From NCBI GenBank assembly GCA_964106915.2, contig OZ066919.1: 64,000 nt of DNA, one strand, 5' to 3'. Below are positions 30,001-33,000 of this stretch, one piece after another (within the stretch, counting starts at the first letter, position 1; every line of letters starts with the position of its first letter). The stretch comes from Podarcis gaigeae (lineage: Eukaryota). The position numbers are program-made.

Positions 30001-33000
30001 CATTAGATGTAGCTTACAAAAATAAGTAGTAAAATAAAATACAATCTAAAAGAAATACATAAAATATTAAAAATAGCAGGAATAAAACATAGGAATTAAA
30101 CAACAGCAGTCCATAAAGGCTCTAGAAGAAACAGATATTTCTTCCTTTATTTAAACAATTTATACCCCATTTTTAAGCTTCACAAAGGGCCCCCAGACAT
30201 AATAAAAAATACAAGCACTGATGAATAATAAAACAGAATATAGAACAGCAAGGATAAAAACCCTCAAATCAAGCTAAAAGCTTGGTGAAGCAAAAAAAAA
30301 AAATATGTAACTCTCGAAAACTCCATTCAGGCTTCTTGGGGAAGGAATTGTACAGCTTGGGCACCACAACCAAGAAGCCCCTGTCCCAAAAAAGTCCTTA
30401 AAAAGCCAATGCAATTCTGGGCTGCATCAATAGGAGTATAGCATCTAGATCAAGGGAAGTAATAGTGCCACTGTATTCTGCTCTGGTCAGACCTCACTTG
30501 GAATACTGTGTCCAGTTCTGGGCACCACAGTTCAAGAAGGACACTGACAAACTGGAACGTGTCCGGAGGAGGGCAACCAAAATGGTCAAAGGCCTGGAAA
30601 CGATGCCTTATGAGGAACGGCTAAGGGAGCTGGGCATGTTTAGCCTGGAGAAGAGGAGGTTACGGGGTGATATGATAGCCATGTTCAAATATATAAAAGG
30701 ATGTCACATAGAGGAGGGAGAAAGGTTGCTTTCTGCTGCTCCAGAGAAGCGGACACGGAGCAATGGATCCAAACTACAAGAAAGAAGATTCCACCTAAAC
30801 ATTAGGAAGAACTTCCTGACAGTAAGAGCTGTTCGACAGTGGAATTTGCTGCCAAGGAGTGTGGTGGAGTCTCCTTCTTTGGAGGTCTTTAAGCAGAGGC
30901 TTGACAACCATATGTCAGGAGTGCTCTGATGGTGTTTCCTGCTTGGCAGGGGGTTGGACTTGATGGCCCTTGTGGTCTCTTCCAACTCTATGATTCTATG
31001 ATTCATGTCCCAGTCAGTTGGATGTCCCCAAACAGCAGGATATGGAGCAGGGCTTTGAATGAAGAGTGTAGTGGGCCGGCAGCCCTTAGAAACAAAATAT
31101 TGTGTGTGTGTGTTTTTCCTTTTTCAATAAAAGCTTAAAACGCTCGGAAGGCAGAAATCTCTTTCTAGTACCAAATTCTGTACAACTTCAAAGCAGGAGG
31201 GAAATCAATCGAATGCACACAGGCTTGGATATAGTCTACTGCTTTTGTTTATAATATTTCTAACCCACTCTTCATCACAATGGATCCCAGAATGGGGTGA
31301 AAACAAACATTCATATTGATAGAATACTTCTGAGCAGGCAGCTGAGAAATGTAATTATTAATTAGCTTGAGAGAAAGCAAGTTTAATACAGATATAGGAG
31401 CTCACATTCTGATATACACAGAGCAAGTTAAGGCACCTTTGCAGTCTCACCTGCAGATGGCTGAGCAAGAAACCAGCCTTTGATGTAGCACACTGTAACC
31501 TCATAGATTGCAACATTCTTGAGCAGTGATCAGCTGTGCATATTTTCATGTTCCTGTGAACAGACAGGATAGACGTTCATATCATTGTCTTGAATAATTG
31601 TGCCATTTCGTGTCTCGTTCATCCTAGGAGAATACCTTCTCCTTTGCACTGTTACGTGCTGTCAAAACTGTCATGCATGAACATTGTGATCAAGGATGTC
31701 TTCCCAACACCTTGCTCCCCCAGGAAGACCAGTTTGAATTTCTGTTGTTGGTTCCCAAACTCTTCTCCTGTAGACAAAGTGCCTAGCTCCAGTGTGGGCT
31801 GGAATTGAAACATACCACTGATTTTTCTGTTTGATATTCAGTGTGTGTTCTTCCCTATCTCCTCCTTTCTTTTATTAATTCTCCATCCTCTGAATCCCCC
31901 TTTGCATAGGTGTTGCCTAAGCATTTATAAAACATGGTTTGATTGTATTACTTTACTTGGGCCTGCGCCTCTGCTCTCACTGCTTGCCAGCCTTGTCTAC
32001 ATGTCACCCCTCCAAATCCCCAGCCCTCTTCCACTTTACACCTCAACCCCGCAAACCTCACCCAAAGCCTCTCCCCTTTACACTTCACCACTGGTAGGGT
32101 GAAATGAAGTAAATGAAGAGGAGAAAGTCTTTTCTCACCTTAGCACTCCTGCCCTGCTGCAAGTTTCCTTTTAATTGTCCCACCACTGTCACTCAGAGAG
32201 AGAAAAAGAAATTGCATTTTAAAATGCAGGCTTTTTCTCTCCTTCCCGCAGCAACAGCCTCCCAGCAGAACAGCAGGCAGGCAAGAGGGGAAGGCAGACC
32301 AGGCAAGCAGAATGGGTGGCCCAAGTGAGCCGCACAGCAGCAGAAAGGACAGAGTTGGACATTTGGCTCTGCTGCTGCTTCCTGCCTCATTGTCCTCCAA
32401 TGCTGGACCAAAACTGTGGTTGCTGGGGAACTGTCCTGCCCTGCCCTGGCTGTTTCTCTGTGACTTGCCTGTCCACAACCCACACCACTTGCCTGGACTA
32501 CCTGCCACCCGTGTCACTCACCTGCCTGTCTAGGCTGCCTGCCTGCTGTTCCGTCATCACTCTGCAGTTGGTCACACCAACTGCAGTGTGACAACATTAT
32601 TACAATCTTAATACATAACAAGAAAAACTGAAGTTCATTAAAACACAATGACACACATTTTTAAAATGCCATTGTTGGGAATGGAAGTGGGCAGTGATTG
32701 AGATAGTGGCAGTACATTTTGTGAACTGGAGGAAGCAGAATTGAGGGGAGGGGGAGTTTCCAAAGCAGGGCTGTGGACATGTACAGACCTGCGGCTCTCT
32801 TGATTACTTCTATGGGACATCATGTCTTTGCAGCAGTTTCAGGTATTTCTTCCTACAACAGCTTTTGCTGCTGGCTGGTGCCTTAGTAACCGTGGATCTC
32901 ACTTGTTTTGAAGAGCTTGCTTCTAGGTTTTGCTGCCAGTGAAAACATATGTGTCGCTGCCAAACTCATTTGCTACAGAGCAAGTTGCAGCAAAGAGCTC

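What the first reader, a model, noticed from the sequence alone, without database searches (positions are those of the whole stretch)
31360..32590. Chimeric RAB6 retrocopy: exons 1-2 only, then foreign sequence and a poly(A) signal - possible fossil of an unknown RAB6 isoform
Seen: minus strand 31777-31649 is 129 nt of RAB6-like coding sequence with no intron. Similarity stops abruptly after ...DST*Q, with no ATIGIDFLSK following. About 260 nt of unrelated sequence follows, then ATTAAA (31387-31382) and an A/T-rich patch. Upstream, roughly 31960-32590 is GC-rich but CpG-poor, like a decayed 5'UTR. An upstream in-frame ATG (31813) gives a 53-aa ORF that keeps the P-loop GEQGVGKTS. Known (recall): RAB6 coding exon 2 ends at c.129. 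Inference: retrocopies normally lose the 5' end, so a 3' stop at an exon boundary suggests the template mRNA spliced exon 2 to an alternative last exon or to another locus. No clear TSD was found.
Basis: partly seen in the sequence, partly recalled or inferred. Interest (0 to 1): 0.65.

Follow-up and report, generated by a model that had tools for sequence, protein, structure and literature searches.

The report
Dead RAB6 retrocopy fragment in intron
A decayed, non-functional copy of the first 129 coding bases of a RAB6 messenger RNA lies backwards inside an intron of a PTPRF-like gene in a reptile- or bird-type genome; it is an ordinary genomic fossil, notable only because it stops where a RAB6 exon ends.

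Summary
Minus strand 31777-31649 encodes RAB6 residues 1-43 (Rab-6A, E 2.6e-15, 32 of 41 identical). The start codon is now TTG and codon 42 is TAA. None of RAB6 residues 44-208 appears anywhere in the 64 kb. ATTAAA sits at 31387-31382, but there is no poly(A) tail, and the target-site duplication candidates are at chance level.

The genome is sauropsid-type, not human. It has a CR1 LINE tail next door and no Alu motif. The host gene is PTPRF-like.

A close relative (about 3% nucleotide divergence) carries the same 53-aa ORF (51 of 53 identical) and the same GC-rich flank, each as a single hit. The ORF is no better conserved than the flank. It is therefore an old (about 11% diverged), neutral, single-copy relic.

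The end at codon 43|44 matches an intron position seen in another eukaryote's RAB6. This favours a template RNA processed abnormally after exon 2. The parent locus could not be searched, so a later deletion or template switching stays open.

The GC-rich "5'UTR" is a foldback of hairpins; no evidence links it to RAB6.

Interest is low.

The parts
31649..31777 (-). 129 nt homologous to RAB6 codons 1-43, including the P-loop (G1 motif), with no intron
   Evidence: Rab-6A E 2.6e-15, 32 of 41 identical. It is the only RAB6-like segment in the window.
31775..31777 (-). TTG where the RAB6 start codon should be
   Evidence: Sequence; alignment (the tool prints the TTG as M).
31652..31654 (-). TAA at the position of RAB6 Tyr42, a premature stop
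   Evidence: P0121 from a relative ends at the same place.
31652..31813 (-). 53-aa ORF made of a non-RAB6 leader (residues 1-12, through 31778) plus RAB6 residues 1-41 and the stop
   Evidence: The relative's copy is 51 of 53 identical. It is not more conserved than the non-coding flank.
31388..31648 (-). 261 nt with no RAB6 similarity and unknown origin, following the RAB6 part directly
   Evidence: No RAB6 hit, no Pfam hit, no credible relative among 1.84 billion representative proteins, no Rfam match at threshold, no other copy in the window.
31382..31387 (-). ATTAAA poly(A)-signal-like hexamer
   Evidence: Base rate on this strand is one hexamer per 719 nt.
31352..31363 (-). A/T-rich patch beginning 18 nt after the hexamer. 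It could be a decayed tail or part of a target-site duplication, and it is not a poly(A) run.
31872..31880 (-). Exact 9-mer AATTAATAA, also present at 31363-31355. It is a candidate target-site duplication that would bound a 508-nt insert (31871-31364), but it is at chance level.
   Evidence: 3 exact 9-mers observed against a shuffle mean of 0.5 and maximum of 3. My estimate of the chance expectation for an AT-rich 9-mer in these positions is 0.1-0.35.
32190..32600 (-). GC-rich, CpG-poor foldback of three hairpins. It is a neighbour of the fragment and is not shown to belong to it.
   Evidence: MFE -197.5 kcal/mol against a shuffle mean of -157.8, z -5.6. The relative has a collinear copy, P0124.

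Best explanation
This is a dead relic of a reverse-transcribed RAB6A-type messenger RNA. It was inserted antisense into an intron of a PTPRF-like gene in a sauropsid, probably squamate, genome. Only the part up to the exon 2/3 junction (codon 43) is present.

The most likely reason is that the template RNA was not the normal mRNA. After exon 2 it was joined to, or ran into, about 260-285 nt of other sequence that carried its own ATTAAA signal. That sequence could be an alternative or cryptic terminal exon, intronic polyadenylation, or a cryptic acceptor in the 3'UTR. That short RNA was then copied into the genome.

The copy has since decayed neutrally: ATG to TTG, Tyr42 to a stop, and about 11% divergence. 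It does nothing today.

Shown: RAB6 homology, its extent, the inactivating changes, single-copy status in the window, presence in a close relative, and the lack of extra conservation.

Inferred: retroposition, the exon-junction coincidence, the nature of the template, and the age.
For: - RAB6 residues 1-43 only, at E 2.6e-15, and nothing beyond them in 64 kb.
- The break falls directly after Q43. P0122, a RAB6 fragment from another eukaryote, diverges at exactly that residue into V-S, as a GTAAGT donor would read. The next boundary, 61|62, is confirmed by a pipefish isoform insert.
- ATTAAA lies 261 nt downstream, with an A/T patch 18 nt after it.
- The start codon is lost and there is a stop at codon 42.
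- In the relative, P0121 is 51 of 53 identical and shares the same leader and the same stop. Between the two sources, 2 of 52 ORF codons differ against 13 of 209 flank codons (Fisher p 0.74), so there is no constraint.
- About 11 of 43 codons differ from Rab-6A, which gives roughly 11% nucleotide divergence, compared with about 2.8% between the two sources.
- The flanks are single-copy: there is one database hit each, no other copy in the window, and no direct repeats of 30 nt or more in 20000-44000.
Against: - There is no poly(A) tail, and the TSD candidates are at chance level.
- The bases after codon 43 are TGCAAA, not GT, so plain intron read-through needs an extra 1-nt deletion.
- One hexamer within about 300 nt is expected by chance about a third of the time at the measured base rate.
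- The exon 1|2 junction inside the 129 nt, which is what makes the fragment 'spliced', is recalled and not tested. In P0122's unknown organism, residues 1-43 are contiguous on one contig.
- The exon boundary in the parent gene of this species was never seen.
- A 4-nt match (GCAA) after a 1-nt shift could move the break to c.133.
- The origin of the 261 nt was not found, so nothing positively ties it to a RAB6 locus.
Confidence: 0.5

Rival explanations
1. An ordinary, longer RAB6 processed pseudogene was inserted and later lost everything after codon 43 through a deletion or rearrangement. The 261 nt and the ATTAAA are simply intron DNA, and the coincidence with the exon junction is chance.
For: The element is old, at about 11% divergence. 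A CR1 insertion lies about 380 nt from the end of the unrelated stretch (30380-31010), which shows that the neighbourhood has been reworked. There is no tail and no TSD. The hexamer base rate is one per 719 nt.
Against: A random break within a few bases of one of about 7 junctions in a 627-nt coding sequence has a chance of roughly 5% (my estimate). No other RAB6 piece was found on either strand in 64 kb.
Confidence: 0.25
2. This is a chimeric retrocopy made by reverse-transcriptase template switching. The enzyme began on another RNA (the 261-nt part, with its own 3' end) and jumped onto RAB6 mRNA, copying it to its 5' end. The enzyme could be of LINE type, or of LTR type as described for non-mammals.
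For: The layout is the one such chimeras show: the 5' part of one RNA upstream of the 3' part of another. LTR-mediated chimeric retrocopies with partial mRNAs are reported in chicken, fish and insects (PMC5131818, abstract read). LINE template-switch chimeras appear in the listings.
Against: The switch point would coincide with an exon junction only by chance. The 3' partner is not recognisable as a LINE, an LTR element or a small RNA. There is no LTR-like direct repeat of 30 nt or more in 20000-44000. The flanks look single-copy.
Confidence: 0.15
3. This is a DNA-level copy of genomic RAB6 sequence, taken either from a RAB6 gene in which codons 1-43 form one exon or from an intron-less RAB6 retrogene elsewhere. 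No RNA step occurred at this site.
For: In the unknown eukaryote of P0122, residues 1-43 are contiguous and are followed by intron-like sequence. The exon 1|2 boundary in vertebrates was not verified here.
Against: By recall, vertebrate RAB6A, RAB6B and RAB41 split these codons between two exons. The bases after codon 43 do not begin with GT. The bases before the start codon are AT-rich and not promoter-like.
Confidence: 0.05
4. The 53-aa ORF, or the segment as an exon of an antisense transcript, is functional. It would be a P-loop micropeptide or a regulatory RNA.
For: The ORF is intact in two sources, with an identical leader. There is an acceptor-like ...ttccag 23 nt upstream of the TTG (31801-31806).
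Against: The ORF is no better conserved than the flank, which itself carries frameshifts and stops. Only the G1 motif of a GTPase is present. The two sources differ by only about 3%, so an intact 53-codon ORF is expected by descent alone.
Confidence: 0.03

Closest known systems
Processed pseudogenes (LINE-mediated retrocopies of mRNAs)
   Same: A copy of a housekeeping gene's coding sequence without an intron, away from the parent gene, inside another gene's intron, carrying disabling mutations and evolving neutrally.
   Different: It keeps the 5' end and lacks the 3' end, whereas L1-type copies are usually truncated at the 5' end. It has no poly(A) tail and no clear target-site duplication. 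The host genome is CR1-rich and sauropsid-type.
RAB6C, the primate RAB6A-derived retrogene (Young et al. 2010; seen only as a text mention and a reference title in PMC4771738)
   Same: RAB6 as the parent of a retroposed copy.
   Different: By that paper's title, RAB6C encodes a centrosomal protein. The fragment here covers 43 codons, has lost its start codon and carries a stop. It also sits in a different lineage.
Chimeric retrocopies formed by template switching: LTR-mediated (PMC5131818, abstract read) and LINE-mediated (listings only)
   Same: A partial mRNA fused directly to unrelated sequence.
   Different: No retrotransposon partner could be recognised next to the RAB6 part. Microsimilarity at the junction cannot be judged without the parent sequences.
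Retrocopies of alternatively or incompletely processed transcripts (semi-processed or intronic-polyadenylation templates; recalled, no paper read)
   Same: The end of the homology sits at a splice junction and is followed by sequence with its own poly(A) signal.
   Different: The downstream sequence was not traced to the parent locus, and no GT follows the junction.

Membership tests
Processed pseudogene / retrocopy | Homology to the spliced mRNA of a parent gene that lies elsewhere | tested here: met
   Rab-6A E 2.6e-15. There is no further RAB6 sequence in the 64 kb. The parent locus itself was not seen.
Processed pseudogene / retrocopy | Absence of the parent's introns across at least one exon junction | tested here: inconclusive
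   The 129 nt are contiguous. That vertebrate RAB6 genes have an intron inside codons 1-43 is recalled only, because PMC15039 is not held.
Processed pseudogene / retrocopy | 3' poly(A) tail | tested here: not met
   After ATTAAA there is only an A/T-rich patch, with 9 A and 7 T in 20 nt.
Processed pseudogene / retrocopy | Target-site duplications | tested here: inconclusive
   The candidates are an exact 9-mer (31880-31872 and 31363-31355) and an 11-of-13 match (32615-32603 and 31390-31378). Both fall within the shuffle range.
Functional RAB6 GTPase gene | Complete G domain (G1-G5) and a C-terminal prenylation motif | tested here: not met
   Only residues 1-43, which carry G1, are present.
Functional RAB6 GTPase gene | Open reading frame with the native start codon | tested here: not met
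   TTG at the start position and TAA at codon 42.
LTR-mediated chimeric retrocopy | Flanking LTR-retrotransposon sequence | tested here: not met
   No direct repeats of 30 nt or more in 20000-44000. No Pfam domains in flank ORFs. The flank has a single database relative. This is a weak test because no repeat library was available.
LINE template-switch chimera | The 3' partner is a LINE, SINE or small-RNA 3' end | tested here: not met
   No Rfam family reaches threshold in 31000-32800. There is no similarity to the CR1 copy next door or to anything else in the window. No repeat library was available.
   No vertebrate nucleotide collection was available.

The most novel reading that the evidence does not exclude
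The fragment is a fossil of a real, recurrent short RAB6 transcript in reptiles: exons 1-2 spliced to a dedicated terminal exon with its own ATTAAA. That would be an isoform not described for RAB6A, RAB6B or RAB41, preserved only because it was once retroposed. The candidate 9-nt duplication would then bound a complete 508-nt copy (31871-31364).
Probability: 0.12. Interest if true: 0.3.

Novelty: new member of a known kind. Interest (0 to 1): 0.12.

Why it matters
It matters little. At best it is one more example of retrocopies preserving rare or aberrant transcripts, and a possible shared-insertion marker for the group of species that carry it. It shows no sign of function and does not bear on RAB6 or PTPRF biology.

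Tried and rejected
- Rest of RAB6 elsewhere in the window (split by an insertion, or inverted by twin priming): tblastn of 6 named RAB6 proteins found nothing with E < 0.1 beyond 31801-31646.
- Repeat family or gene capture by a transposon: no second copy of 31011-32800 in the window. No direct repeats of 30 nt or more in 20000-44000. One database relative each for the ORF and for the flank.
- Coding potential of the flanks: no Pfam hits for 5 of 5 ORFs or proteins tested. The window carries 2 stops and 3 frameshifts relative to P0124.
- The 63-aa ORF of the unrelated part against 1.84 billion representatives: 1 hit, a 687-aa protein matched in 9 short stretches at 37% identity and E 1.5e-4. 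I take this as spurious.
- RNA families: 0 at gathering score over the whole window. Five matches in 31000-32800 were all far below gathering score. There are 0 tRNAs.
- The gene-structure paper for RAB6A (PMC15039) is not held. Two other papers mention RAB6A only in passing.
- The bacterial promoter and terminator scan is irrelevant to a eukaryotic intron and was ignored.
- A Helitron or MITE reading of the hairpins, checked by eye: no matching termini or duplications were seen, and it was not pursued.

Full report
**What is there**

Read on the minus strand, 31777-31649 translates without interruption as the first 43 residues of a RAB6 GTPase. It differs from RAB6 in having TTG at the start position and TAA at codon 42. 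phmmer against all PDB chains puts Rab-6A first (3bbp_A and 4dkx_A, E 2.6e-15, residues 1-41, 32 of 41 identical). Drosophila Rab6, Rab-6B and yeast Ypt6 follow, and other Rabs are at least seven orders of magnitude weaker. Pfam Ras is matched at 25.1 bits against a cut-off of 21.6.

ATTAAA is at 31387-31382, 261 nt after the last RAB6 codon.

**Extent of the RAB6 similarity**

I took six named full-length RAB6 proteins out of the 120 returned by a database search and ran tblastn against the whole window on both strands with a permissive threshold. All six hit 31801-31646 (E 5e-16 to 5e-14). No other hit had E below 0.1.

RAB6 residues 44-208 are therefore not in these 64 kb. They were not displaced by an insertion and were not inverted. 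The similarity ends at Q43. The following bases (TGCAAAGG...) match the next RAB6 codons only if a 1-nt shift is allowed, and then for 4 nt, which is within chance.

**What genome this is**

I do not take the window for human.
- A 14-nt Alu core motif has 0 matches at up to 2 mismatches.
- Rfam and ARAGORN find nothing.
- 30402-30929 (+) is an open frame that I recognise, by recall, as the C-terminal end of a CR1 LINE ORF2. Its DNA ends at about 31010 in ...ATGATTCTATGATTC. That is the octamer-repeat tail that a review figure legend draws as ATTCTRTG(n), the alternative to a poly(A) tail on non-LTR elements (PMC5381603, passage read). Pfam has no model for that piece.
- From recall, the CR1 protein tail resembles squamate rather than bird copies. 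'Squamate' is therefore an inference.

The host gene lies on the plus strand. I searched its exons one at a time and did not build or search a joined model.
- The Ig exon at 14777-15106 matches type IIa receptor phosphatases. PTPRD and PTPRS score 168-177 bits.
- The FN3 exon at 38908-39489 matches PTPRF FN3 chains: 2edy_A (162 bits over 99 residues) and 2dn7_A (138 bits over 94). The PTPRD chain 6x3a_A has the highest whole-chain score (163.9 bits, summed over three repeat matches), but its best single domain gives only 100 bits over the same 94 residues that 2dn7_A covers.

The fragment sits antisense in the roughly 13-kb intron between the FN3 exons at 25613-25885 and 38833-39513.

**A second copy in another source**

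A near-length search of the protein collection returned P0121, a 53-residue ORF from an unnamed 1216-nt contig. It is identical to the window's ORF at 51 of 53 positions. It has the same non-RAB6 leader and the same end. At one of the two differences P0121 keeps the RAB6 residue (Pro10), and at the other the window does (Ser28).

The longest ORF of the GC-rich flank (32143-32517, minus strand) found exactly one relative, P0124, from an unnamed 1065-nt contig. P0124 is collinear with 32575-31951. Relative to it, the window has 13 differing codons of 209 compared, 2 stops and 3 frameshifts.

This points to three conclusions.
- The locus exists in a close relative, at about 2.8% implied nucleotide divergence.
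- The flank is not coding.
- The RAB6 ORF (2 of 52 codons different) is not conserved better than the flank (Fisher p 0.74).

This assumes that the two contigs come from equally distant sources, which I did not and should not try to establish. One hit each, rather than many, also argues against a high-copy transposon. The test is indirect because it depends on ORFs having been called.

**Age**

About 11 of 43 codons differ from Rab-6A: 9 mismatches, plus the start and the stop. One of these, Ser40, may be ancestral, since the other RAB6 proteins have Ser there. This implies roughly 11% nucleotide divergence, about four times the distance between the two sources. The insertion is old and predates their split.

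**The exon-boundary argument**

I could not read the RAB6A gene-structure paper (PMC15039 is not held), and no vertebrate DNA collection was available. Two indirect results help.
- P0122, a 58-residue ORF from an unnamed eukaryotic contig, follows RAB6 to ...DSFDSTYQ and then reads V-S-L-Q... Val-Ser is what GTAAGT encodes, so that organism has an intron directly after Q43.
- Pipefish RAB6B isoform X1 (P0014) carries a 28-residue insert between T61 and V62 relative to isoforms X2 and X3. This marks the next boundary, consistent with the recalled exon map.

The junction inside the 129 nt (exon 1|2) remains recalled only. In P0122's organism residues 1-43 are contiguous, so 'intron-free, therefore retroposed' is likely but not proven here.

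**Signals of retroposition**
- There is no poly(A) run. The 20 nt at 31371-31352 hold 9 A and 7 T.
- AATAAA or ATTAAA occurs 89 times on this strand of the window, once per 719 nt. One within 300 nt is therefore unremarkable.
- A systematic search for direct repeats between 31400-31280 and 32800-31778 gave two candidates. The first is an exact 9-mer, AATTAATAA, at 31363-31355 and 31880-31872. The second is an 11-of-13 match at 31390-31378 and 32615-32603. Both are within the range of shuffles.
- The 9-mer is well placed: 18 nt after the hexamer and 95 nt before the TTG. It would bound a 508-nt insert. My estimate of its chance expectation is 0.1-0.35, so it is only a lead.

**The supposed 5'UTR**

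Positions 32001-32750 are indeed richer in G+C (0.51-0.52) and poorer in CpG (o/e 0.09) than the surroundings. The stretch is built of inverted repeats, however.
- A 16-nt perfect pair lies at 32268-32283 and 32536-32551, inside longer imperfect arms.
- There are two small palindromes at 32557-32591 and 32200-32241.
- As RNA, 32600-32190 folds into three hairpins at -197.5 kcal/mol against -157.8 for shuffles (z -5.6, 0 of 100 shuffles as good).

About 180 nt of AT-rich DNA separate it from the RAB6 part. Nothing ties it to RAB6. If the 9-mer duplication is real, this stretch lies outside the insert.

**Weighing the mechanisms**

A random break, whether from a deletion or a template switch, would fall within a few bases of one of about seven junctions in a 627-nt coding sequence roughly 5% of the time. 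A template that was spliced or terminated abnormally after exon 2 would do so always. I put it at about 0.5, because the boundary in this species, the exon 1|2 junction and the origin of the 261 nt are all unverified.

The other readings are:
- later deletion, about 0.25;
- template-switch chimeras, about 0.15. These include the LTR-mediated type described for non-mammals (PMC5131818, abstract read) and the LINE type (listings only);
- a DNA-level copy, about 0.05;
- any present function, about 0.03.

Within the leading class, an aberrant one-off transcript is more likely than a genuine isoform.

**What stayed unchecked**
- No vertebrate genome, transcript or repeat library could be searched.
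- The parent RAB6 locus, outgroup introns and the repeat status of the flanks are therefore open.
- No supplementary files were needed or consulted.
- Searches for RAB6 retrocopies in print found only the primate RAB6C retrogene and general reviews. I make no claim about what is absent from the wider literature.

**Verdict**

The object is an ordinary, old, neutral pseudogene fragment.

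Noticed in passing
window 30380-31010 (+): 5'-truncated CR1-type LINE copy. It has an open C-terminal ORF2 piece at 30402-30929 and a 3' end with the octamer repeat ATGATTCTATGATTC. It lies tail-to-tail with the RAB6 fragment, about 380 nt from the end of the unrelated stretch. 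A second CR1 tail (23 nt identical) is at 63764-63786 (-).
   Followed up: partly
window 32190-32600: GC-rich, CpG-poor foldback made of three hairpins, including one of about 285 nt (z -5.6 against shuffles). It is conserved collinearly in a close relative (P0124). Its origin is unknown: an inverted duplication or a foldback or MITE-like element. No termini or duplications were recognised.
   Followed up: partly
window 28242-28362 and 28609-28729: Inverted repeat with 121-nt arms, 93% complementary, 246 nt apart. It looks like the terminal inverted repeats of a small DNA transposon.
   Followed up: no
window 43133-43282 and 20563-20635: Near-perfect hairpin with 65-nt arms, 98% complementary and a 20-nt loop. 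A 78% related copy lies 22.5 kb away, which suggests a palindromic repeat family in this genome.
   Followed up: no
window 56430-57000: The most G+C-rich part of the window. It is open in several frames on both strands and contains an 89-nt unit repeated 1.8 times (56636-56798). It may be a CpG-island-like or repeat-derived segment inside the host gene.
   Followed up: no
window 14708-46233 (+): Exons of a PTPRF-like receptor tyrosine phosphatase (one Ig exon and several FN3 exons), seen as long open frames at 14708-15169, 16294-17019, 17313-17618, 22465-22857, 25613-25885, 38833-39513, 42059-42670 and 45916-46233.
   Followed up: partly
window 30000-30400 (+): A-rich, low-complexity stretch ending in a 13-nt A run (about 30291-30303), directly upstream of the CR1 piece. 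It may be the tail of another retroposed element.
   Followed up: no
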